Shown: positions 1 through 64,000 of the stretch, piece by piece
How the letters are laid out: every line of letters begins with the position of its first letter
How positions within the stretch are numbered: position 1 is the stretch's first letter
NCBI GenBank assembly: GCA_000004985.1
Contig: GG738889.1
Reading direction: 5' to 3' (one strand)
Source: Naegleria gruberi
Taxonomy: Eukaryota
Length of the DNA stretch: 64,000 bases
Notes under the pieces: generated by a model
Told to the model about the DNA's origin: nothing
The model's database searches: none
The model's input: the letters and a program-made list of their open reading frames with translations, nothing else
Position numbers and translations under genes: made by a program

Positions 1-1426
1 TAAATTATTATTATTATTATTAATAGAATTAATAATACCAGTTAATTGAGAAGGATTAAATTTTTTTTTAATATATTGTTTAAAAATAGGATTTAATTTA
101 ATAATATTATTATTATCATTTAAATCATTTGAATTAAATTGATATTTTTTAATAGTATTATTAGGATTTAAAATAATATTACCAATATTATTTAATATAC
201 CTATACCATTTATAGCATGTATTTGTCTAAGTAAAGTAGATAATGATATTTTTTTAATAATCCAATTAGATCCAATTGTTAAATCTAATAATAAATCTCC
301 TACTCTTTTTTTAGAACTCATTTTTAATATAATTAAATCTCTCATTTTAATTCCTAATTTTTTACTTGATTGAATTTCATTTTCTAATACTTGACAAAAT
401 ATTTCATATTTTCTTCTCATTTCTCCATTTATAGATTCTAATAATCCTATTGCAGGTGGTGATAATGTTGTTATATTATTATTATTATTTAAATTATTAT
501 TATTTAAATTATTATTTAAATTATTATTATTATTATAATTAATATTAAAAAATAAAATATTTGAATCACCTCTCATTTCAATATTACGTAAAGTAACATT
601 AATAAATTCTAAAGAATTATTATCATTAATATTATTTTGTATTTGTGCAATACATTCTTGTAAAATATGTGGTGTAAAAATATCTGAATATTCTGAAAAT
701 GATTTAAATATATTTGGTATTTCTCTTAATCCATTTTTTAATACTTCTTCTTCTTTTTTAGGTAATACTGCTATTTTTAATTTAGTTTTTTCATCATATT
801 TTATATCTGTATTTAATAATATATTATAAAATTTATTATCTTTAATTTTACAAAATCTTTGTAATTCTTCTTTTGTATTAATTAAATTATTTACATTATT
901 TAATTTATCTTCTTGTAATGCTATTTTAAGTAAATCACTTGATTCAGATATAAAATTAATTAAACTTGTTTTACCTGAACTTAATTTAATTGTTGGTTCA
1001 ACTATTTGTGATTGAATTTGAATATTATTTTTATTTTTATTATTATTAATATTATTAGTATTATTAATAATATTATTTGATTGAATAGATGATTGATTAA
1101 TAGATCTAGATGGTCTTTTTAAACTACTGGTAGTTGCTGTAATTGGTTGTTGAATAGTATTATTAGTATTATTATTATTAGATGAAGATATATTATTATT
1201 ATTCATTGAAGATTTAATAGATGAAATTCTAGAAGATGGTTTTTTTAATTGACTTGTTGTAATTGGTGTTTGTTCAATTAATTTCTTTTTTGGTATTGTA
1301 AAATTAATATTATCAGATATATTATTATTATCATTATTATTAGTATTATTAGAAATTGATGATTTAAATGATGATGAAATTGAATTATTATGAACATGTT
1401 CATTACTATTATTAGATTTATCAGTT
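1..1426 (-). CDS. N/S-rich hypothetical protein, internal fragment truncated by window edge and by assembly gap
   Basis: Minus-strand frame (codons ending at plus positions 3k) is open over the whole interval, about 475 codons (...QSQIVEPTIKLSSGKTSLINFI...IGLLESINGEMRRKYEIFCQVLENEIQ...FNPSQLTGIINSINNNNNNL, running off position 1). Coding-like composition; no family recognised. Absent from ORF track because no in-frame start before the gap. Confidence 0.45.
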
Positions 1427-3726: not shown

Positions 3727-5556
3727 TTAAATAAGTAAAGTAACAAAATCAGATGAAAAATCAATGATTGGACATGTTTTTTCAAAAGTTAAAGAAGTCA
3801 TAAAAGCATCAGATGCTTCTTCATCATCATTAAAATGTTCAGATAAAACTTTACCCAAATGATACCAAGCCAAATGATTTGTTGGATTGATACGTACAGC
3901 ATTTTGTAAATAATTTCTTGAAAGTGTTGTTTGTTTTTCATGTTTGTAAAAAATAATACCCAATCTTAAATAGGCAATTTCACAATCAGGATCATTAATT
4001 AAAGCAGCTTCATATTCAATAATTGCATCTTTAATTTTACCAGAATCTTCAAATATTCTACCTTCACATGAATGAATTAAAGCATTTGTTTTTTTAAGTA
4101 AATTAATTAATTCTTGTTGTATTTCATCTTTTTGTATTCTACCATTATTTAATAATAAATCAATTATAGTCATATAATCACGTGATGTTTTTTGAATTGG
4201 TTCAATTGATCCAATTAATTGTTGTTGTTGTTGTCTTTTTAGGTTGTGAAGCAGATGAAATTGGTTGAGTATTATTTGGTAAAAGTGTTGAAACTTTTGA
4301 TGATTCAATTTCTTCAATTTCTTCAACTAATTGAATCATTAAATCTTTAGCTTTAGACATGTTAAATGTTGCATCATCAAGTAATTTCTTTCTTCTCAAT
4401 GCTTCACTTATAAATATATAATAATTTATAATATCAATCTTTTTTTGTCTATATTCTACTATGGATATTAATTTTTTATTTTGGATTTTGATTATTATTT
4501 AATAATAAATTATTAGTATTATTAGAAGTAGTATTAGTAGTAGTATTATTTAAATTATTTAAATTAAAATCCAATCTAGTAGTATAATTATCTAAATATT
4601 TAAATAATTCATCTGATAATTTAGAATAAGTTCTAACAGATTTATTAGAATCTAATGATGCTGATGATAATATATTATTATTAATATTAATATTACTATT
4701 AATATTAATATTATCAGATTGTTCAGATGATTGTAAAGAAATATTAAAATTAAAAGATTCTAATAATTCTTCCATACGTGCATATAATAATTTTAATTTT
4801 AAATCATTTGGATATTGTTCTAAAATAATTTTAATAATTTTAAAAGATTGTAAATAATTTTGTTTTTCACTTGATGTAAATAATAATGCTAATAAAATCC
4901 ATGATTGTTTTTCATCTTGATTTAATGAAATTGATTTTTTAATATATAAAAATGATTCTTTTAATTCTCTCATTTCACTATAAATTAATGATAAATGATA
5001 ATTTAATTTATAATCATTTGAATCATATTCATTTACTTTTAATAGAATTTTAATTGATAAATTTAATANATTATTCTTTTCTGTCATGGNNNNNNNNNNN
5101 NNNNNNNNNNNNNNNNNNNNNNNNNNNNNNNNNNNNNNNAAATACTTGACCATTTAATAAATCAATATTATTTATATTCATAATTACATCTAAATCTTTA
5201 TAACTATTTAAAATAACATCTAAATTAGTTAAATTATTATTTAAAATTATATTAAAATATTCTCCTACTATATTTGTATTCTTATTTTCTATTAATTTTA
5301 ATATTTTACTATTTAAATCTTGTAATATTGTTAAATCACTTGTCATTTGATAATATTGTATTTTAGATTCTACATGTAAACAATCACTTAAATTTTTACA
5401 TCCTAATTCTTGTGCTTTTTTAGAACATTGTTCTAATTCGGATGATTGTTTATAATCATTTTGTGATCTTGCCAATGTTAATTCACGTATTATAACTTGT
5501 GATTGTAATTGTACAAGCTTTTTAGACATTTTTTTTTTATTGTTATTGTTGTTCAT
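3727..5556 (-). CDS. TTC7: TTC7-like tetratricopeptide-repeat protein (PI4K-complex scaffold family); contains a 60-N gap and two frame disruptions
   Basis: N-terminus MNNNNNKKKMSKKLVQLQSQVIIRELTLARSQ... (ATG 5556). Middle block ILLALLFTSSEKQNYLQSFKIIKIILEQYPNDLKLKLLYARME matches the TTC7 helical core. C-terminal block ALINDPDCEIAYLRLGIIFYK...NHLAWYHLGKVLSEHF...PIIDFS matches the TTC7 C-terminal TPRs and tail (..AW.GLGEVL......EA.DCF.TALELE...P..PFS). In-frame TAA at 4476 and a +1 shift near 4200-4330 (in a QQQQ/ACAACA run) suggest unresolved short introns or indel errors. The missing middle (NLQKDLHLQ...LLSKY) is only present in the duplicate copy at 7446-7750. Confidence 0.6.
5090..5149. 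other. assembly gap (60 N) inside TTC7-like gene
   Basis: Run of N. Confidence 0.99.
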
Positions 5557-7385
5557 CCGTTGGGCGCTTCTATTATATGATGATGACACCAACAACAATA
5601 ACAATAAAATTTTATTAGCCTATGGACCAAGATTCACAGGAGAAGGCTTTGGATGACGAAAAGAGAAATAGAATGCGTGAAGAACAAATGTTTGCAAACA
5701 GTGTGGAAAGGCCAGGCTTCAAAATAAGAATATTGGAGCAAAAGTAATCTTCATCATGCTAACAAAGAAAATGATTAAATCACATCTGACGTCATTTTCA
5801 TCATCAAATGCTCCTATTAATTAATTGTTAATAGCAATAATATCTTAATATTCAAAAGTTTTATTTAGATCCATTATTATCATCATCTCCATCATTAAAT
5901 AATAATTCAAAAAAATAATAATTTAAATAATTGTGGATTAATAATTGAAAATATATGTTCATCTAATTTATTAATTTAACCTATAAACAAGTCAATTAAT
6001 TGGTTGACTACTCTTAAAAGTAAACTATTCCTATATCTTTTACAATTCTCTTCAGCAATAGATTATTCTTGTTGGCTTGTTTAAAAATCTCATAAAAATC
6101 ATGACAAGAAATTGCAAAATTGAAAAGAGTTTTCACATTTCCAATAAACTCTAAAATACAATAAATCATGTCATGACTATTTACAAGTGGACTTAAATTG
6201 ATGAATGGACTTTCAGTATGATCAATAATTGAATCAATAGAATACAACATTTTCCTAAAGGCATCCAATAAATTATCATCCCATTCAATATTACAAGTTT
6301 CTCTCTTAATAATTTCAATGAGATGTTGTTTTCTATCCTCCTCTTTATCATCCTCAGAGGAATATTTAGTCTTTTTAGAAGGTGGATATGATAACTCATT
6401 ATCATTCTCATTCTCATTATTATCATTCTCATCATTACTCAAATAATCCTTGTAATGTTCTCCCAATACATTAACTAAAACTCTATCATTCACATAACAA
6501 TCAAATTCACACAATTCCAAATATCTTGTCAAGTAAATTGGATGAACATTATTCATTAGTGAATTAATTTGTTCAAAGGGTCTAACATTCTGATACTCTG
6601 CAAAACATGCATCATTAAATTGTATTGTTCGTTTTTCTCCTGAAAACATTAAAATTTTAGTTTTATCACTCAGAGTAAATAAAACTAAATGATCATCAAA
6701 TTCGGAAATGGGAAATCCCCTCATAGCATAAAAAGGTTGTTTATATGAAACGTGAGGAAGAGAGCAAACTAATTCTTCCAAATTTAAATTGTTAATAGAG
6801 GAAATTTCAATATTAGAAAGAGCTTTTTCTAGCATGGAAAAATTGATAATGTAAAAATTGTGCATGATCACCATACGTGTTCTGGCCATTTTTTTTTTTA
6901 ATTCGTAATGTTAATTCCTTTCTTTACTGGAACTAAATAGTATTCTATTTGAATGTTGAAATGGTTTATAATATTACAATGCAAATTGGTATAAACCTAT
7001 TGATTCATTTCTTAATATCAATGACCTTATGTTATTTCATTAGATGAAACTGTCAATGTCCTTAATTCTTAATAAGTAAACTATCAAAAGGAAAGATTTA
7101 CCTTTCCACTCTTACAATGAAACTGTAGAAATACTGTTTCTCCATTGGGTTGATTGGCATAATGAGGATGATTAAGTTTCGATTGAAATATGACAAGATT
7201 TTTTAATATACCCTATTACAATGGATTTAATGAAGAAATCATTAAACGGTAACAAATAAGATTTTAAAAAGATATTCCAACAAGATATTTAGAATAGATA
7301 TTTATCATTCAATAATAATTTATAAATCATCTCATTTTCTCCACTAATATTATTGAATATTATAGTGTTTTAAGAGTNGGTGTAT
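5150..7385. repeat. segmental duplication, copy 1 (TTC7 5' part + upstream region + hypothetical gene + about 500 bp downstream)
   Basis: Near-identical to 7742-10018 with scattered substitutions and several indels (e.g. 45-bp indel at 5650-5700 vs 8250-8270); bounded by N gaps on both sides. Confidence 0.8.
6014..6889 (-). CDS. hypothetical protein (duplicate copy 1), 291 aa
   Basis: Uninterrupted ORF MARTRMVIMHNFYIINFSMLEKALSNIE...; the paralogous copy at 8605-9495 conserves the frame through indels (DKTK vs DDDKTK, PPSKK vs PPPPSKK), arguing that the frame is real. No family recognised. Confidence 0.55.
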   Translation of the reverse strand: MARTRMVIMHNFYIINFSMLEKALSNIEISSINNLNLEELVCSLPHVSYKQPFYAMRGFPISEFDDHLVLFTLSDKTKILMFSGEKRTIQFNDACFAEYQNVRPFEQINSLMNNVHPIYLTRYLELCEFDCYVNDRVLVNVLGEHYKDYLSNDENDNNENENDNELSYPPSKKTKYSSEDDKEEDRKQHLIEIIKRETCNIEWDDNLLDAFRKMLYSIDSIIDHTESPFINLSPLVNSHDMIYCILEFIGNVKTLFNFAISCHDFYEIFKQANKNNLLLKRIVKDIGIVYF

Positions 7386-7445
7386 GGAGTAATAANNNNN
7401 NNNNNNNNNNNNNNNNNNNNNNNNNNNNNNNNNNNNNNNNNNNNN
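7386..7445. other. assembly gap (60 N)
   Basis: Run of N. Confidence 0.99.
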
Positions 7446-8158
7446 TAATATTTAGATAATAATTGTAAAATATTAATTTTAATAATAGGTTGTAATAAAT
7501 TTTTTAATTGAATTAATTTTAAAATTAAATTAATTCCTTGATCAATATTATTTTTTAATAAAATTTCAATTTGATTAAAAATTTCTAATTGAATTTTATA
7601 ATTATTAAAACTATCAATTTTATCAATAATATTTGAATATTTAATTAAATGATCAATTAAAATATTACTTTTTTTAATAGATAAACATTTAAAATAAATG
7701 AATATATATGGTAATTGTAAATGTAAATCTTTTTGTAAATTAAATACTTGACCATTTAATAAATCAATATTATTTATATTCATAATTACATCTAAATCTT
7801 TATAACTATTTAAAATAACATCTAAATTAGTTAAATTATTATTTAAAATTATATTAAAATATTCTCCTACTATATTTGTATTCTTATTTTCTATTAATTT
7901 TAATATTTTACTATTTAAATCTTGTAATATTGTTAAATCACTTGTCATTTGATAATATTGTATTTTAGATTCTACATGTAAACAATCACTTAAATTTTTA
8001 CATCCTAATTCTTGTGCTTTTTTAGAACATTGTTCTAATTCGGATGATTGTTTATAATCATTTTGTGATCTTGCCAATGTTAATTCACGTATTATAACTT
8101 GTGATTGTAATTGAACAAGCTTTTTAGACATTTTTTTTTTATTGTTATTGTTGTTCAT
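7446..8158 (-). CDS. duplicated 5' portion of TTC7-like gene (copy 2; truncated at gap; either a gene fragment/pseudogene or the true continuation mis-placed by assembly)
   Basis: Same N-terminus as 5160-5556 (MNNNNNKKKMSKKLVQ...) and extends further (…NGQVFNLQKDLHLQLPYIFIYFKCLSIKKSNILIDHL...LLSKY) up to the gap. Confidence 0.4.
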
Positions 8159-10018
8159 CCGTTGGGCGCTTCTATTATATGATGATGGTGATGACACCAA
8201 CAACAATAACAATAAAATTTTATTAGCCTATGGACCAAGATTCACAGGAGAAGGCTTTGGATGACGAAAGAAGAGGAAAGGCCAGGCTTCAAGATGAGCA
8301 AAAGTAATCTTCATCATGAGCTGCTAACAAAAGAAAATATTAAATCACATCTGACGTCATTTTCATCAATGCTCCTATTAATTAATTAATTGTTAATAGC
8401 AATAATATTGTTGAAGATATTCTTTTACATGAAAATTAATATTCAAAAGTTTTATTTAGATCCATTATTATCATCATCTCCATCATTAAATAATAATTCA
8501 AAAAAATAATAATTTAAATAATTGTGGATTAATAATTGAAAATATATGTTCATCTAATTTATTAATTTAACATATAAACAAGTCAATTAATTGGTTGACT
8601 ACTCTTAAAAGTAAACTATACCTATATCTTTTACAATTCTCTTCAGCAATAGATTATTCTTGTTGGCTTGTTTAAAAATCTCATAAAAATCATGACAAGA
8701 AATTGCAAAATTGAAAAGAGTTTTCACATTTCCAATAAACTCTAAAATACAATAAATCATGTCATGACTATTTACAAGTGGACTTAAATTGATGAATGGA
8801 CTTTCAGTATGATCAATAATTGAATCAATAGAATACAACATTTTCCTAAAGGCATCCAATAAATTATCATCCCATTCAATATTACAAGTTTCTCTCTTAA
8901 TAATTTCAATGAGATGTTGTTTTCTATCCTCCTCTTCATCATCCTCAGAGGAATATTTAGTCTTTTTAGAAGGTGGTGGTGGATATGATAACTCATTATC
9001 ATTCTCATTTTCATTATTACTATCATTCTCATCATTACTCAAATAATCCTTGTAATGTTCTCCCAATACATTAACTAAAACTCTATCATTCACATAACAA
9101 TCAAATTCACACAATTCCAAATATCTTGTCAAGTAAATTGGATGAACATTATTCATTAGTGAATTAATTTGTTCAAAGGGTCTAACATTCTGATACTCTG
9201 CAAAACATGCATCATTAAATTGTATTGTTCGTTTTTCTCCTGAAAACATTAAAATTTTAGTTTTATCATCATCACTCAGAGTAAATAAAACTAAATGATC
9301 ATCAAAATCGGAAATGGGAAATCCCCTCATAGCATAAAAAGGTTGTTTATATGAAACGTGAGGAAGAGAGCAAACTAATTCTTCCAAATTTAAATTGTTA
9401 ATAGAGGAAATTTCAATATTAGAAAGAGCTTTTTCTAGCATGGAAAAATTGATAATGTAAAAATTGTGCATGATTACCATACGTGTTCTGGCCATTTTTT
9501 TTTAATTCGTAATGTTAATTCCTTTCTTTACTGGAACTGAATAGTATTCTTTTTGAATGTTGAAATGGTTTATAATATTACATTGTGAATTGGTTATAGA
9601 ATGTAATAACCCATTGATTTACATTTCTTAATATCATTGACTATTTATTATTTCATTAGATGAAACTGTCAATGTCCTTAATTCTTAATAAGCAAACTAT
9701 CAAAGGAAAGATTTACCTTTCCACTCTTACAATGAAACTGTAGAAATACTGTTTCTCCATTGGGTTGATTGGCATAATGAGGATGATTAAGTTCGATTGA
9801 AATATGACAAGATTCTTTAATATACCCTATTACAACGAATTTAATGAAGAAATCATTAAACGGTAACAAATAAGATTTTAAAAAGATATTCCAACAAGAT
9901 ATTTAGAATAGATATTTATTATTCAATACTAATTTATAAATCATCTCATTTCCTCCACTAGTATTATTGTATATATTATTGAATATTATTGTGTTTTAAG
10001 AGTGGTGTATGGAGTAAT
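7742..10018. repeat. segmental duplication, copy 2
   Basis: See copy 1. 7360-7385 (left of the gap) matches 9993-10018, so the unit end is defined. Confidence 0.8.
8605..9495 (-). CDS. hypothetical protein (duplicate copy 2), 296 aa
   Basis: Paralogue of 6014-6889; differs by 3 in-frame indels and 2 substitutions. Confidence 0.55.
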   Translation of the reverse strand: MARTRMVIMHNFYIINFSMLEKALSNIEISSINNLNLEELVCSLPHVSYKQPFYAMRGFPISDFDDHLVLFTLSDDDKTKILMFSGEKRTIQFNDACFAEYQNVRPFEQINSLMNNVHPIYLTRYLELCEFDCYVNDRVLVNVLGEHYKDYLSNDENDSNNENENDNELSYPPPPSKKTKYSSEDDEEEDRKQHLIEIIKRETCNIEWDDNLLDAFRKMLYSIDSIIDHTESPFINLSPLVNSHDMIYCILEFIGNVKTLFNFAISCHDFYEIFKQANKNNLLLKRIVKDIGIVYF

Positions 10019-10062
10019 AAAAACCTTATTTCCCATTTCTCCACATTACTCAGCTGAAATGG

Positions 10063-10071
10063 TTTGGCGCC
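10063..10071. promoter_or_regulatory. E2F-consensus half site TTTGGCGCC in 5' region of gene 10105
   Basis: GC-rich 9-mer in AT-rich context; member of the recurring TTTGGCGCCAAA family (see findings). Confidence 0.3.
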
Positions 10072-10104
10072 TTTCTGCTTTCGTGCATTTTTTGTAAAAA
10101 TAAC

Positions 10105-10836
10105 TTGGAGAGATGTTGTTTAAGAGTCAATAAAGACGATCAAAGCCTAAAAAAAAAAGTGACCACTCTCAACAATAGCATCCAGCACAGATACCTTATA
10201 CTATCATCATTGTTAATAATATTGATTGTTGATTTTGTGTTTATATCACTTTGTTTGTGGATGTTTATTCGTTCCTTTAATGAAACAGTTCACTACGGTG
10301 AAATGGTACAATTATTGAATATGAGAACGAAGGCTGTTGTAGAACAACGTGATTATCATTGTCAACATTCAAGTTATAGACAGGGTGGTGATGTATATTG
10401 TTCATCTTTAATAAGATTATTTAATTCCGAACCTTTTAATATACCAGATTCTTATTTTGGTAATTTGAATATTTTAAATCAAACTATATTAAGAAATACT
10501 AATGATTATCAATTATTAGAAAAAATACCAAATAATGGTGAATTTATTCATGTTTATATTCATGTCAATACAACTCCATTAACTTCACCTTTTATTTCAT
10601 TTTCAATTTATGAAAATTTAAAAGAATTACAAAATTTAAATGTTACTTCACCTGCCTTTTTAGGAGGATCTGTTGGTATTCTATGTATTGCAATTGCCAT
10701 AACTTTTTTAATTATTGCTATAATTATTGGATGGAGAATTAAATTAAAACAATTAAGAGATTTTCATTTAATTGATATTTTATTAATTAATTCAAATGGA
10801 ATACAAGTTAAAAAAGATGGTTCAATTAATGTTTAA
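10105..10836 (+). CDS. hypothetical membrane protein (two predicted TM helices); start codon unresolved
   Basis: ORF open from 10021; first ATG in frame only at 10261 (MFIRSF...), yet the upstream in-frame segment encodes a TM helix (YLILSSLLIILIVDFVFISLCLW), so a spliced 5' exon is likely. C-terminal TM GILCIAIAITFLIIAIIIGW. Confidence 0.3.
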   Translation: MERCCLRVNKDDQSLKKKVTTLNNSIQHRYLILSSLLIILIVDFVFISLCLWMFIRSFNETVHYGEMVQLLNMRTKAVVEQRDYHCQHSSYRQGGDVYCSSLIRLFNSEPFNIPDSYFGNLNILNQTILRNTNDYQLLEKIPNNGEFIHVYIHVNTTPLTSPFISFSIYENLKELQNLNVTSPAFLGGSVGILCIAIAITFLIIAIIIGWRIKLKQLRDFHLIDILLINSNGIQVKKDGSINV

Positions 10837-38578: not shown

Positions 38579-41028
38579 TTATTCTTCGTCATCGATAACA
38601 ATAGCATCTTCATCCTCTTCCTCTACTTTTTTCTTTGATCTTGATGAGCTTGCTTTCTTTGGTTTTTCTTCAGTTTTCTTTGGTCTTCCTCTTCTCTTTG
38701 GTTGTTCTTCTTCCTCTTCGTCTTCATCTACATCTAATGCTTTGAACTTGGCTTTCTTTGAAGCTGCTGCCTTTCCTCTTGTTTTCTTTGGCTTTTCTTC
38801 CTCTTCATCACTTTCGTTCTTCTTTCTTTTAGCTCCTCTCTTTTTTGGTTTTTCTTCCTCTTCATCACTGGCAACCTTCTTTTTTCTTCCTCTTGTCGTC
38901 TTTTTTGGTTTCTCTTCCGCAGCTTCTTCGTCGCTTACAACCTTCTTTTTTCTTCCTCTGGTTGTTTTCTTTGGTATCTCTTCTTCCTCTTCTTCACTTT
39001 CATTTTTCTTCTTTCTGCTTGTAGGTTTCTTCTTTTCGACAATTTCCTCTTCCTCAAGAATATCCTCTTCATCAGATTTGTCCTCAGATTTTGAAGCCTT
39101 AGAGAGCCTGTCAGACATTATTTTATCCTTATCCAAGTTCTCTTTGCTTTCTTCTCTATACTTTTGTAAATATTTCTCCAAATCAGATTCAGAAATGTCT
39201 TGATTGGCAAATTGTTTGAGATCAGACCACAATTTCTTTTGTTTTGACTTGATATCACTAGCAACAAAGTCATCAATGGCATGAGCTTCTTCCTTATCTA
39301 CAAAGTCAACAACAGAGTTTTGGAATTCAAATTCATTCAATACTAATAAACCATTAATATTAGTTTTTTTGGTGGATGTCTCTTTCAGGAAATGTGAAAC
39401 TAAATCTTCAATCTTGATACCATCAGTAAGAGCATCACTTGCAGCATCTGCAAATAGCTCACTATTATTATCATTATTCAAAATTGCATTAAGTAATTGT
39501 TCTTTGGATTTCTTTTTCTTACTCTTCTTTTTTCCCTTTTCCTCTTCAACTTCTTCATCCTCTTCCATGTTGTCCTCTTCCTTTGATGCCTTTTTCCTTG
39601 ATAATAAAAGCAAATCTGATGGGTTGGCAATCTTTCCAACAAAGTTTTGACCAAATCTTTGAGGATTGACAGTGGCATAACCACCACTGTAATCTACTCT
39701 GAGTCTGATAATTGGTAGATCTAATCCAGGATATTTCTTATAGTAGGCTTTGAGTTCTTTAATTGCTTCTTCATCCCCTTCAAAATTACTTAGTTTGTCT
39801 TCCTTAGCTTGTTTAATTAATTGATTTACGTGTTCTTTAAGGAAATCAGCAATTTCGTCTGGATTGTTCTTAATATGTTTCAAATCTTGTTCAAAATCAG
39901 AGAGAGAAATTGAATCAAATACGTAAGGTCTTACAGTTTTCAATGTAATTGGAATAACTCTGAATGAATCTTTGTAAATTTCCAAGATGGCAACCTTTTT
40001 TGGCTTAGCTTCTTGGTGTGTGTATGTAGTAGAAATAGAACTACCTGGTTGCATTACTTCAAATCCACCAGTAGCACTTTTTGTTGGAGTGATTTGTTGT
40101 TCATGTTCATGACCCCACACTACTAGATCAAAAAATCCTTTCAGCATACTTTCACTAATATTTCCTTTCTTTGTGTGATGTTGATTTCTATTTTGGTGAA
40201 TGGTCATCAAATTAAACCATTCATTTGAACCTTGACTATCTTCACCACTTGGTCTAAAGAATGTCACTTTCTGATTTTTAAATGTTTGATATAAACGTTC
40301 GTCTCTTATATAACCAAGTCCATAAAGTGCAAGTTTAGTTTCTCCTTTTTGTACTAAAATAGGTTTAACTTGAATATTATCCACAGTTTCACACTTTCCG
40401 AAATAATTTATCAAATTACATTGTGCAAGAACATCCAAAACACTGAGACTATTCTCTCCAGACCAAGCATCATGATTACCTAATGTTTTAATCATTGTCA
40501 TATAAATTATGAAAACTCATAAAATACAAACTTACCACTGATTGCAAAAATTGGAAGAGAAATATTAACATTAGGATCTTCATAATTTACAGTTCCTTCA
40601 GGATTTGATTTGAAATTTACAGATTGATCACTTAAAATTTGCAAAGGAACAGGCTTGTCACCAAAAACATATTTTCTCAGAATTGATATTGTCTTGTGAA
40701 GAGTATCACGAGAAGGCTTGTTATCATGGAAAAGATCACCTCCCTGTAACACAAAATCTACATTATATTTGTGACCATATTGAATAATCTCCTCAAAGAT
40801 GATAAAAGAGTCATCCTTTCTAACTGTATCACGTTCCAAGTATCCAACATGATTATCCGTTGTTATTAAAACTCTGAGAACATCCTTTTCATCAACATCT
40901 TGCTCATTAACACCACTTGATCCTTCTTCAACAGGTTTAATTCCTCCCTCTTCATCATCAACATAACTACGCTGTGATGAGAGACGGAAATTAGAGGCTT
41001 GTGAAGCTCCACTCTGTGTCCTAGGCAT
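38579..41028 (-). CDS. MRE11: double-strand-break repair nuclease MRE11, 2 exons, with basic/acidic repeat tail containing AT-hook motifs
   Basis: complement(join(38579..40479,40536..41028)). LRVLITTDNHVGYLERD..R..DSF..FEEI...........VDFVLQGGDLFHDNKPSR......I..LR..VFGDKPV..QILSDQ....NYEDPN.NISLPIFAIS|GNHDAWSG...LDVLA...L.NYFG; phosphoesterase motifs III-V follow (GHEHE). The 56-nt intron (G|GTAAGT...CATTAG|) splits the GNHD motif. Confidence 0.9.
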
Positions 41029-60268: not shown

Positions 60269-61362
60269 TTATTCTTGCTTTTCATGACTGTTCATAGAAT
60301 TCCATTCCTTCAAGAACTTTTGTCTTTCACTAACTGAAGAGTTGACTGAAACTATTCCAAGAACTTTTGGTAAAACAAGCTTTCTAATAGCAGAAAGAGT
60401 AAAGTCTAGTAAAATTGAATGAGTTTCAAATAATAAGAGAATAAAAACTTACTTTGTTCAAGAGATTTTCTATCTTCTTCACCCAAATAAATTTCAGCTA
60501 CATTCAATGTATTGTAAACTTGAGCCAAAGTTCCATAAATATGTTGCCAAAAATTACCAAGATGATAAGCTGGACTGAATTCTTCATAAGTATATTTGAA
60601 TCCAATGATAACAACTTGGAAATTCTTATCTTCTCTCAATACTTGTTCCATATCATCAAAGAAATAATTGTGGAACTTTAAAACACCTCTACCATTTGAA
60701 GTAACTGCTTCAGGGAAGACAACGACTGGTCCTCTGGAATATTTCTTAGCATCTCTAACAATTTCATGAAGAGGTTGACAATCCTTATGAAGATTATCAG
60801 TACTTTCACTAAATTGTCCAAACAAAGTATGATAAAGAGCTCCAAAAAATCCAAAAGGTTTCAATCCATAAATAACTTCACCATTTTCAATCTTACTCTT
60901 GACAGCCATTGCAAAAACTGGAGAATATTTGAAATTCAAATAAAAAAAATCAATATAAGAAACATAATTTGAAACAATCAAATCTCCATGAGCAATATCA
61001 GAAGGGACAGTCTTCTTATCCTTTCCTTCCAAATCAACTTGCTTACTCTTAACTCCACTAAATCCCAACAAGGTAAACAAAGCACATCCACAACACAAAA
61101 TACTTGCATAACGATGTAACAATCTCTTAATAAAACCAATCGGAATGATCATTGAAACATGTTGTACAGCAAAATATGGTATTAAAAAGATGCAAATTAA
61201 TAAAAACTTGATCAGGAATGGAACAGGTGAGATCAATGCTCTAAGAGGCTTTAAAACAAATTTTTGGAGTGTCGTCAAGTCTCGGAATGAATTTTTCTTT
61301 CGGTACGGAACAAAAGGATTGACGCCTGTGGCATCATCGGTAAACTTTTTAAATTTTTCCAT
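60269..61362 (-). CDS. PlsC-family (lysophospholipid) acyltransferase-like protein, 2 exons; motif I is N-Y rather than N-H
   Basis: complement(join(60269..60405,60453..61362)). ATG 61362; TM segments; motif I region IVSNYVSYIDFFYL (canonical NHxSxxD has Y in place of H); motif III VVFPEAVTSNGRGVLKF (FPEGT-type). 47-nt intron A|GTAAGT...TTTACTAG| adds NFTLSAIRKLVLPKVLGIVSVNSSVSERQKFLKEWNSMNSHEKQE*. Confidence 0.55.
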
Positions 61363-62489: not shown

Positions 62490-64000
62490 TTATTTGAGAT
62501 CTTTTGAAGGATTTCTAGCCTCTTCTGGTAGAACACCTTCTTTAATCTTTTTGTCAATTCTAAAAAGAATGGAATTAATTACTGATTTACAAAGACCCTT
62601 TTGAGATGCTTCTGCTAATTGGAATCTTTCGGAAAGGTCATCTTGTGAAATATCATAAAGGATATCATACAGAATTTCTGCATAGATTTGATCTGTTGAA
62701 TTCGAAAGGGTATTATTTTGTGGTGTACTCGGTGAAGGTTTGCTTACTTCAAGTAATTGTTTTGGTGCCTTTTTGATGGTATTCATATTTTCTTCATCAT
62801 CATCTGAATCATCATCGTCATTATTGCCACCATCTGAATCATCATCTGAATCTGAATCATCTGAATCGTCACCAAAATCAAATTTCATCTTATTACCAGT
62901 TGATGGAGCAAGTTTGGTTGGAATGACATCTTCTTTTGCATTGTCTGAAATTTGTTGTACTGGTTTTTTCTTTTCTTTCACAGTTCCAAAATCCCATCCA
63001 TCGTTATCTTTTCTATTTACAATTGTTCCTTCTTCATCATCGTCATCATCTGAATCGTCTGATGAATCATCACTTGATGATGATTCAGAAGGATTTTTAG
63101 TATCCGTAATTGGCTTTACATAATTTAATTTGGCTTCAACTAGATCAAGAAGAGTAGAACTCTTCTTTGCATTCTTAATAAATTTGGTTTTAAGAAGATC
63201 TTTGGCGCTTGGTCTTGAACTTGGCTCTTTTTGTAAACATAACTCCACAAACTCTTTAAAATATTTTGATACTTTTGGATCATCTAATTTTGGTGCTGGT
63301 TCTTTTGGAATTTTTAATAAAGCTTGTAATGGCTTTAAGTGACTTAAAGGAGGAACTCCTTTGTACATTTCAATTGCTGTTATTCCTAAAGACCAAATAT
63401 CTGCTTTTTCTGTGTAACCTTGACGAACAATAACTTCTGGGGCCATATACTAAACGATTGTTAAACACAAATAATCTACTAATACATACATATGGGGTAC
63501 CAACAAATGTATATCTCTTTCTATTTCCCATGGTGTTTGTTAATTGTCCAGAAACTCCAAAGTCTTTTTATGATACTTGTTATCAAATAAATCTTTTCAA
63601 CACTTACCTCCGATTTTAATTTGACAATCTTTGGAGATCAAAATATTAGCACTTTTGATGTCTCTGTGAATTTTATCTTCTCCGTGCAAGTATTCCAATC
63701 CCTTTAATGTTTCTCTCATGATTACAGCAATATGTTTTTCTTCAAGACCCTTTGTTTCAGAAGAACCTCGTTGTTTTGATTGAATTTCCATAATATCTTG
63801 AATTGAACACAATAAAAGATCCATAATAATCCACAAAAAAGATCCATTGATAAAAGCTCCATAAACTTTAACTACATGTGGAGAGTTAGTACTCATCTGA
63901 ACGTGAACTTCTTTTTGAATATCCTCAATTTCATCCGTAGCCTCTTCAAGATCAATAATTTTGATAGCGATTGTCTCACCATTTAGCTTGTTGATTCCCT
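62490..64000 (-). CDS. STE20-family (GCK-III/MST-like) serine/threonine protein kinase, 3+ exons, 5' end beyond window
   Basis: complement(join(62490..63449,63490..63563,63608..>64000)). GINKLNGETIAIKIIDLEEATDEIEDIQKEVHV...HIAVIMRETLKGLEYLHGEDKIHRDIKSANILISKDCQIKIG|DFGVSGQLTNTMGNRKRYTFVGTPY|YMAPEVIVRQGYTEKADIWSLGITAIEMYKGVPP...; introns 44 and 40 nt. Asp/Ser-rich acidic tail. Confidence 0.8.

What the first reader, a model, noticed from the sequence alone, without database searches (positions are those of the whole stretch)
5150..10018. Tandem segmental duplication (2 x about 2.3 kb) bounded by assembly gaps; a paralogous gene pair plus a duplicated TTC7 5' fragment
Regions 5150-7385 and 7742-10018 are collinear copies, each carrying the 5' part of the TTC7-like gene, its upstream region, a 291/296-aa hypothetical gene and about 500 bp downstream. 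Coding parts differ only by in-frame indels and a few substitutions, whereas non-coding parts carry a 45-bp and a 30-bp indel among others. That pattern fits selection on both copies or two divergent haplotypes assembled in tandem. Each copy begins at a 60-N gap, and the only complete middle segment of TTC7 (7446-7750) sits in copy 2, not next to the gene body. The assembly here may therefore be mis-ordered, or the real locus has TTC7 disrupted by a duplication. Both copies keep a CRE-like palindrome TGACGTCA (5787-5794, 8352-8359) in the shared upstream region.
Basis: seen in the sequence. Interest (0 to 1): 0.5.

Follow-up and report, generated by a model that had tools for sequence, protein, structure and literature searches.

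The report
Probable false duplication from two haplotypes
The two 2.3-kb copies in this Naegleria gruberi scaffold are real sequence, but they are most likely the two alleles of a single locus that the shotgun assembler placed side by side, so this is an ordinary assembly artefact rather than a gene duplication.

Summary
Window 5140-7395 and 7742-10021 are collinear copies, 97.8% identical at aligned bases with about 20 indels, and they are the only large repeat in the 64 kb.

The window is the Naegleria gruberi NEG-M draft assembly. The two ORFs are GenBank genes NAEGRDRAFT_71168 (291 aa) and 71169 (296 aa).

Copy 1 is a whole 2,256-bp contig lying between two 50-N gaps (50, not 60). It has no unique sequence at either end and is fully contained in the neighbouring contig. 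This is the layout called a "duplicated contained contig", a known false-duplication artefact in heterozygous shotgun assemblies. N. gruberi is reported to be heterozygous in a mosaic pattern.

Differences cluster in non-coding DNA (4-5%). The TTC7 5' fragment has one synonymous change in 391 bp and no indel, which is not what a decaying truncated duplicate should show.

About 307 codons of TTC7 are missing from the assembly, so there is a real gap, and the extra contig sits in it.

Best reading: two alleles of one locus, confidence 0.7. A real tandem duplication (about 0.2) cannot be excluded without reads.

The TGACGTCA motif occurs no more often than chance. Interest is low.

The parts
3727..5089 (-). 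TTC7-like gene, 3' two-thirds, at the right end of contig A. It aligns to residues 572-1051 of the N. lovaniensis ortholog. GenBank models only the last 148 aa (NAEGRDRAFT_71167).
   Evidence: tblastn of P0002; TPR Pfam hits; TTC7B is a collinear C-terminal PDB hit; P0013 = EFC40918.1
5090..5139 (.). Assembly gap of exactly 50 N. A single low-quality N sits 20 bp inside contig A at 5069.
5140..7395 (.). Contig B (2,256 bp), which is copy 1. It is wholly contained by homology in 7742-10021 and has no unique sequence at either end. Proposed to be the second allele of this locus.
5140..5530 (-). TTC7 5' coding fragment in copy 1 (codons 1-130). It differs from copy 2 by one synonymous change (GTA/GTT at 5512) and has no indel.
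6014..6889 (-). 291-aa ORF, GenBank NAEGRDRAFT_71168 (EFC40919.1).
7396..7445 (.). Assembly gap of exactly 50 N. A single inserted N lies 17 bp inside contig B at 7378.
7446..8131 (-). TTC7 5' coding part at the left end of contig C (228 open codons). It aligns to residues 1-264 of the N. lovaniensis ortholog.
7742..10021 (.). Copy 2, the twin of contig B, lying inside the long contig C. Contig C continues without a break into the downstream genes.
8605..9495 (-). 296-aa ORF, GenBank NAEGRDRAFT_71169 (EFC40920.1). It differs from the 291-aa form by 3 synonymous changes, 2 conservative changes and 3 in-frame indels in low-complexity stretches.
5787..5794 (.). TGACGTCA palindrome in copy 1. Its twin is at 8352-8359.
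   Evidence: these are the only 2 hits in the window, they represent one event, and 0.38 are expected by chance
8352..8359 (.). TGACGTCA palindrome in copy 2.

Best explanation
Contig B (5140-7395) is the alternative haplotype of 7742-10021 in the heterozygous strain N. gruberi NEG-M.

Proposed sequence of events:
- Sanger reads from the two homologous chromosomes differ here by about 2% plus indels of up to 38 bp. The assembler therefore built two contigs instead of one.
- Reads from the identical flanks were merged into the long contig C. This left B as a short contig made only of the heterozygous patch.
- Mate pairs tied B to this neighbourhood. The scaffolder dropped it into the real sequencing gap inside TTC7 and separated it from its neighbours with placeholder gaps of 50 N.

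The true locus is then:
- eIF2B;
- one uninterrupted TTC7 gene, with roughly 0.9 kb of its middle unsequenced;
- one copy of the orphan gene, with 291-aa and 296-aa alleles;
- the 243-aa ORF;
- the 669-aa gene;
- CcmE.

Shown here: the contig geometry, the divergence pattern, the missing TTC7 segment, and the organism. Inferred: that the two sequences occupy the same chromosomal position.
For: 1. Geometry. B is a separate 2,256-bp contig bounded by gaps on both sides. It aligns over 100% of its length to sequence starting 346 bp away. All differences lie between 5512 and 7364, leaving identical ends of 372 bp and 31 bp. This is the 'duplicated contained contig' layout of Kelley & Salzberg 2010. 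They report that most confirmed false duplicates are under 2 kb, with a median identity of 98.1% (PMC2864568).

2. Organism. The ORF is an exact match to N. gruberi EFC40919.1. N. gruberi is reported as heterozygous (PMC9928731), with heterozygous patches in a mosaic among homozygous regions (PMC6201504).

3. Gap sizes. Both gaps flanking B are exactly 50 N, whereas the third gap in the window is 1,128 N. I infer that 50 is a floor value rather than a measured distance.

4. A real gap exists where B sits. Contig C covers residues 1-264 of the N. lovaniensis TTC7 ortholog and contig A starts at residue 572. About 307 codons are absent from the whole window.

5. Constraint on the TTC7 fragment. 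It has 1 synonymous change in 391 bp and no indel. The flanking non-coding DNA has 42 changes in 937 bp and 12 indels (Fisher P = 9e-6). If one fragment were a dead truncated copy evolving at half the non-coding rate, the chance of seeing at most 1 substitution is 0.013, and the chance of seeing no indel is 0.08. Alleles of one functional gene predict what is observed.

6. Parsimony. One sequencing gap explains every contig end. A real duplication needs two independent assembly failures and two mis-sized gaps.

7. Gene family size. Beyond this near-identical pair, an exhaustive search of the representative library finds no other N. gruberi member and only one N. lovaniensis member.
Against: - No reads, mate pairs or independent assembly could be examined, so co-location of the two sequences is inferred and not shown.
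- In Kelley & Salzberg's genomes only 30-52% of contained duplicate contigs were confirmed as false by mate pairs. Geometry alone is therefore not decisive.
- Non-coding divergence of 4-5% with many indels is high for alleles. I could not retrieve the published heterozygosity level for NEG-M.
- The constraint argument weakens if synonymous divergence (about 4 changes in roughly 290 sites, about 1.4%; my estimate) is used as the neutral rate. The expectation then falls to about 3 changes, and P(<=1) is about 0.16.
- Gene conversion between real tandem copies could also keep the TTC7 fragment identical.
- Under this reading the gap between A and B should be about 1.2 kb, not 50 N. The gap sizes therefore fit neither model well.
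- The orphan gene is not at this locus in N. lovaniensis. The region has been rearranged at least once.
Confidence: 0.7

Rival explanations
1. This is a real, recent tandem duplication of a unit of at least 2.6 kb. Its left breakpoint lies inside TTC7 and its right breakpoint lies upstream of the orphan gene. The left copy stays joined to the TTC7 body. The right copy carries a truncated TTC7 5' fragment. Both orphan-gene copies are functional paralogues. The two junction regions fell into assembly gaps because near-identical repeats break shotgun assemblies.
For: - The two sequences are placed in tandem in the published scaffold and are annotated as separate genes (71168 and 71169).
- Divergence of 2-5% with many indels is on the high side for alleles.
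- Both ORFs are intact, with only in-frame indels and 3 synonymous against 2 conservative changes, as expected for two selected copies.
- The orphan gene has moved relative to N. lovaniensis, so the locus is dynamic.
- Real repeats also cause contig breaks.
- A third to a half of contained duplicate contigs were not shown to be false in the reference study.
Against: - No junction sequence exists anywhere in the window. Both would-be junctions are hidden in gaps, and contig C still reads as TTC7 coding sequence at its very end.
- Contig B has no unique base at either end.
- The supposedly dead TTC7 fragment has no indel, no stop codon and only one synonymous change next to non-coding DNA at 4-5% divergence.
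- It requires two separate assembly failures, and a first gap holding at least 1.2 kb although it is written as 50 N.
Confidence: 0.22
2. Contig B comes from a paralogous locus elsewhere in the genome, a dispersed segmental duplication that includes a second TTC7 and a second orphan gene. Sequence similarity pulled it into this scaffold.
For: - This would also explain the conserved TTC7 coding sequence, because both genes would be full length.
- It would also explain the lack of unique ends on B.
Against: - Only one TTC7 homologue was returned for N. lovaniensis.
- The orphan family is single-copy in N. lovaniensis, and no further N. gruberi member was found.
- A second locus should have produced its own longer contigs with unique flanks, and mate pairs would link B to those rather than to this scaffold.
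- It is not testable with the window alone.
Confidence: 0.06
3. Contig B is a low-quality or chimeric assembly of the same reads, and its differences from contig C are sequencing errors.
For: Single N calls sit within 20 bp of the contig ends at 5069 and 7378.
Against: - Differences are 8-fold rarer in coding than in non-coding DNA (Fisher P = 1.5e-10).
- All indels inside the ORF are in frame.
- The differences include clean 38-bp and 26-bp indels.
- Random errors do not respect reading frames.
Confidence: 0.02

Closest known systems
Haplotype-induced false segmental duplication ('mis-assembled duplicated contained contig', Kelley & Salzberg 2010, Genome Biol 11:R28)
   Same: - A short contig (2.3 kb) aligns over its whole length, at about 96-98% identity, to a longer contig a few hundred bp away in the same scaffold.
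- It is separated from its neighbours by gaps.
- The heterozygous core has identical ends.
- The genome is heterozygous and was assembled from whole-genome shotgun Sanger reads.
- Gene models are duplicated as a result.
   Different: - The defining mate-pair test could not be run here.
- Non-coding divergence (4-5% plus many indels) is higher than the 98.1% median identity reported for vertebrates.
- The extra contig sits inside a true sequencing gap within a gene, so it also splits that gene's model.
Recent tandem segmental duplication creating a gene pair plus a truncated gene fragment
   Same: - There are two head-to-tail copies with a period of about 2.6 kb.
- Both complete ORFs are intact.
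- One boundary falls inside a neighbouring gene.
   Different: - No junction sequence is present.
- One copy has no unique flanks.
- The truncated fragment shows no sign of decay.
TTC7 / Ypp1, the tetratricopeptide scaffold of the PI4KIIIalpha complex (the flanking gene)
   Same: - The C-terminal TPR region aligns collinearly with the C-terminus of human TTC7B (E = 1.5e-9).
- The full-length N. lovaniensis ortholog has TTC7B as its top PDB match, with two collinear stretches (E = 1.4e-19).
   Different: - The sequence is very AT-rich with low-complexity inserts.
- The N. gruberi gene is incomplete in the assembly and is annotated only as a 148-aa fragment.
- No functional data exist.

Membership tests
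Haplotype-induced false duplication (duplicated contained contig, Kelley & Salzberg 2010) | The duplicate lies on a separate contig within 50 kb of its twin | tested here: met
   Contig B (5140-7395) is bounded by gaps. Its twin starts at 7742, 346 bp away.
Haplotype-induced false duplication (duplicated contained contig, Kelley & Salzberg 2010) | The alignment covers more than 93% of the short contig | tested here: met
   100% of the 2,256 bp aligns collinearly, with no unique end.
Haplotype-induced false duplication (duplicated contained contig, Kelley & Salzberg 2010) | Identity above 95% | tested here: met
   Identity is 97.8% at aligned bases (2155/2203). The BLAST segments are 95.7% over 1,590 bp and 98.7% over 528 bp, with one 118-bp stretch at 87%. 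If every gap column is counted as a mismatch, identity falls to about 92%.
Haplotype-induced false duplication (duplicated contained contig, Kelley & Salzberg 2010) | Mate-pair distances become consistent when the contig is overlaid on its twin | not testable with these tools
   No reads or mate pairs are available.
Haplotype-induced false duplication (duplicated contained contig, Kelley & Salzberg 2010) | The sequenced organism is heterozygous | tested here: met
   From the literature only. Heterozygosity of N. gruberi is cited in PMC9928731, and mosaic heterozygosity in PMC6201504. The original paper was not readable here.
Haplotype-induced false duplication (duplicated contained contig, Kelley & Salzberg 2010) | Each copy has about half the read depth of the homozygous flanks | not testable with these tools
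   No read data are available.
Real tandem segmental duplication | A junction where the end of one unit is joined to the start of the next | tested here: inconclusive
   No junction is present. Both candidate positions are in the 50-N gaps. Contig C's left end is still TTC7 coding sequence.
Real tandem segmental duplication | A truncated gene fragment evolves without constraint | tested here: not met
   The TTC7 fragment has 1 synonymous change in 391 bp and no indel, against 4.5% divergence and 12 indels in 937 bp of non-coding DNA. The test is weaker if synonymous sites are taken as the neutral rate, or if gene conversion acted.
TTC7/Ypp1 family (flanking gene) | Collinear similarity to TTC7 across the TPR solenoid, better than to generic TPR proteins | tested here: met
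   The N. lovaniensis ortholog P0002 has TTC7B as its top PDB hit (E = 1.4e-19, two stretches). The window's C-terminal 125 aa aligns to TTC7B residues 710-831 of 837. For the window fragment alone, designed TPR proteins and OGT score higher.
cAMP-response-element (CRE) regulatory site | The motif occurs more often than chance, or is conserved beyond the background | tested here: not met
   There are two hits in 64 kb, which are the two copies of one site. 0.38 are expected by chance, and 7 of 100 shuffles give at least 2. No comparable element was looked for upstream of the N. lovaniensis gene.

The most novel reading that the evidence does not exclude
The duplication is real. A recent tandem duplication of about 2.6 kb in N. 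gruberi copied a Heterolobosea-specific orphan gene together with the promoter and first 230 or more codons of TTC7. Both orphan copies, and unexpectedly the truncated TTC7 fragment, have since been kept intact by selection or gene conversion.
Probability: 0.2. Interest if true: 0.2.

Novelty: not a real feature. Interest (0 to 1): 0.1.

Why it matters
The importance is mainly practical.

- If the two copies are alleles, NAEGRDRAFT_71168 and NAEGRDRAFT_71169 are one gene counted twice.
- The misplaced contig and the sequencing gap also affect the TTC7 orthologue. It appears in the N. gruberi protein set only as a 148-aa fragment (NAEGRDRAFT_71167), against 1,051 aa in N. lovaniensis.
- Both errors can carry over into gene-family counts, pangenome presence/absence calls and estimates of recent duplication.
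- The pair does give a direct look at allelic divergence in NEG-M at one locus. Divergence is about 0.5% in coding DNA and 4-5% in non-coding DNA, with frequent indels.

Tried and rejected
- Independent copies of the locus. Exact-protein look-ups of both ORFs in public assemblies returned nothing. A metagenome scan with the family profile found no relatives. No accession is mentioned in the searchable literature.
- Published heterozygosity level. Fritz-Laylin 2010 and the 2011 review are not held. Only secondary citations were found.
- Function of the orphan protein. There is no Pfam hit: only one family member has a sub-threshold F-box-like match, E = 0.12. AlphaFold with an 8-sequence alignment gave pLDDT 34, so no fold search was run.
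- A conserved small plus-strand ORF between TTC7 and the orphan gene (5622-5747 and 8230-8307). It keeps its start and stop because the 38-bp and 10-bp indels sum to 48. However, the shared middle is read in different frames in the two copies, so I rejected it as chance.
- Whether the missing TTC7 middle is misplaced in the AT-rich contig at 1-1426. It is not. That contig is the N-terminal part of a helicase homologous to the N. lovaniensis AAA_11 gene.
- 'No N. gruberi TTC7 model exists'. I inferred this and later found it wrong: one search found the 148-aa fragment model. The first search had capped its candidates.
- A second tandem pair at 60406-61362 and 62490-63446. Both ORFs are 318 aa, but the proteins are unrelated.
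Full report
**What is in the sequence.** The window has three runs of N: 1427-2554 (1,128 N), 5090-5139 (50 N) and 7396-7445 (50 N). Single N calls lie at 5069 and 7378, close to contig ends. The region therefore consists of three contigs:
- contig A, 2555-5089;
- contig B, 5140-7395 (2,256 bp);
- contig C, from 7446 onward.

The repeat finder and a self-BLAST of the whole window show that contig B is collinear with 7742-10021 inside contig C. No other repeat longer than 150 bp exists in the 64 kb. A global alignment gives 2,155 matches, 48 substitutions and about 20 indels. The first 372 bp are identical. All differences fall between 5512 and 7364. The last 31 bp are identical apart from an inserted low-quality N. 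Contig B has no unique base at either end.

**Organism and genes.** The 291-aa ORF is identical to N. gruberi EFC40919.1, NAEGRDRAFT_71168. The 296-aa ORF is EFC40920.1, NAEGRDRAFT_71169. Both lie on a 348,446-bp scaffold.

The gene on the minus strand to the left is TTC7-like. Its C-terminal TPR region aligns collinearly with the end of human TTC7B. Its N. lovaniensis orthologue P0002 (1,051 aa) has TTC7B as its best PDB match (E = 1.4e-19).

Contig C encodes residues matching P0002 1-264. Contig A starts at P0002 residue 572. About 307 codons, roughly 0.9 kb, of TTC7 are therefore absent from the whole window. A real sequencing gap lies between A and C. In GenBank the gene is represented only by a 148-aa C-terminal fragment, NAEGRDRAFT_71167, the accession immediately before 71168 and 71169.

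**Pattern of divergence.**

| Segment | Substitutions | Indels |
|---|---|---|
| TTC7 5' coding fragment | 1 in 391 bp, synonymous | none |
| TTC7-to-ORF spacer | 21 in 435 bp | 5 |
| ORF | 5 in 875 bp (3 synonymous, 2 conservative: E/D and K/E) | 3, all in frame, in low-complexity stretches |
| ORF upstream region | 21 in 502 bp | 6 or 7 (one of the seven rows is the inserted low-quality N; a 2-bp poly-T indel at the ORF start, binned under ORF, also belongs here) |

Coding against non-coding gives Fisher P = 1.5e-10. The differences are real biological variation filtered by selection. They are not sequencing errors.

**Alleles or paralogues.** The sequence alone cannot prove either, but several points lean the same way.

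1. The layout is the 'duplicated contained contig' of Kelley & Salzberg (PMC2864568). A short contig made only of a heterozygous patch aligns completely to a nearby longer contig that also carries the homozygous flanks. Mate pairs place the short contig next to the long one. Confirmed cases in that study were mostly under 2 kb, with a median identity of 98.1%.
2. N. gruberi is reported as heterozygous, with heterozygous patches in a mosaic (PMC9928731; PMC6201504).
3. The two gaps around B are both exactly 50 N, while the other gap in the window is 1,128 N. I infer that 50 is a placeholder value.
4. There is a true gap in TTC7 at exactly this place into which the scaffolder could drop B.
5. 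If the duplication were real, one of the two TTC7 5' pieces would be a dead fragment. At half the flanking non-coding rate, about 6 substitutions and 2.5 indels would be expected in 391 bp. One substitution and no indel are seen (P = 0.013 and 0.08). The 228-codon fragment in contig C is also fully open in DNA of about 13% G+C.
6. One sequencing gap explains all contig ends under the allele model. The duplication model needs two independent failures and a first gap of at least 1.2 kb.
7. Beyond this near-identical pair, the orphan family has no other N. gruberi member and only one N. lovaniensis member in an exhaustive search of 1.84 billion representatives.

**Caveats.**
- No reads, mate pairs or second assembly could be examined.
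- Only 30-52% of contained duplicate contigs were confirmed false in the reference study.
- Non-coding divergence of 4-5% is high for alleles, and I could not retrieve the published heterozygosity level.
- If synonymous divergence (about 1.4%, my estimate) is taken as the neutral rate, the constraint test falls to P of about 0.16.
- Gene conversion could mimic the conserved TTC7 fragment.
- Neither model predicts a 50-N gap between A and B.

I put the allele (false duplication) reading at 0.7 and a real tandem duplication at about 0.2. A misplaced dispersed paralogue gets about 0.06, and sequencing error about 0.02.

**Context.** The N. lovaniensis locus L001 carries, in order, helicase, penicillin amidase, eIF2B, TTC7, a 667-aa gene and CcmE. 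Only 340 bp separate TTC7 from the 667-aa gene. The window has helicase, eIF2B, TTC7, the orphan ORF, a 243-aa ORF, a 669-aa gene and CcmE. The orphan gene and the 243-aa ORF are therefore lineage-specific occupants of this spacer. The N. lovaniensis homologue of the orphan gene, P0005, lies on another contig.

The orphan family has a conserved C-terminal motif, DMxYCILEFIGxxKTLxNF...KR..KD.G.I. It also has a central VHPI.LFRY.E motif and an acidic stretch containing KKRK. It has no Pfam match and no usable structure model.

**CRE-like motif.** TGACGTCA occurs only at the two copies of one site. With 0.38 expected by chance in the window, one independent occurrence is unremarkable.

**Verdict.** The finding is a correctly observed repeat. 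Its most likely cause is a known assembly artefact in a heterozygous draft genome. It has bookkeeping value: one gene is counted twice and TTC7 is truncated in the annotation. Its biological interest is low.

Noticed in passing
window 5535-5609 and 8137-8217: A perfect 19-bp inverted repeat (TTTTATTGTTATTGTTGTT / AACAACAATAACAATAAAA) lies immediately upstream of the TTC7 start codon in both copies. Folded as minus-strand RNA it gives -22.7 and -25.8 kcal/mol (z = -4.8 and -5.6). The 6-bp indel between the copies lies in the loop. No equivalent repeat is found upstream of the N. lovaniensis gene.
   Followed up: partly
window 3727-5089 and 7446-8131 (minus strand): About 307 codons of TTC7 (N. 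lovaniensis residues 265-571) are missing from the entire window. GenBank represents the gene only by a 148-aa C-terminal fragment, NAEGRDRAFT_71167, against 1,051 aa in N. lovaniensis.
   Followed up: yes
window 8605-10836; L001 9661-10001: Synteny with N. lovaniensis (eIF2B, TTC7, a 667/669-aa gene, CcmE) is conserved. N. gruberi, however, has the orphan ORF and a 243-aa ORF (10105-10836) that looks membrane-spanning by eye, where N. lovaniensis has only a 340-bp spacer. The N. lovaniensis homologue of the orphan gene lies on a different contig.
   Followed up: partly
window 6014-6889 and 8605-9495; proteins P0004-P0009: The orphan protein belongs to a small family. Its named members come from Naegleria and Willaertia, and four more come from unnamed ENA contigs. 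It has a strongly conserved C-terminal motif of about 50 aa and no Pfam match. Willaertia magna has two sequences more than 90% identical on two different contigs, which may be another haplotype pair.
   Followed up: partly
window 1-1426 (minus strand) and gap 1427-2554: The very AT-rich left contig (15% G+C) is one open frame of 475 codons. It is 44% identical to part of the N. lovaniensis AAA_11 helicase gene and runs into the 1,128-N gap. The penicillin-amidase gene that lies between the helicase and eIF2B in N. lovaniensis is not seen here.
   Followed up: partly
window 5622-5747 and 8230-8307 (plus strand): A small ORF (41 aa in copy 1, 25 aa in copy 2) keeps its start and stop in both copies because the 38-bp and 10-bp indels sum to 48. 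The shared middle is read in different frames, so this is probably chance.
   Followed up: yes
window 38783-38983: A short internal direct repeat of about 140 bp at 78% identity is offset by about 60 bp inside the 640-aa ORF at 38579-40501. It is probably a coding low-complexity repeat.
   Followed up: no
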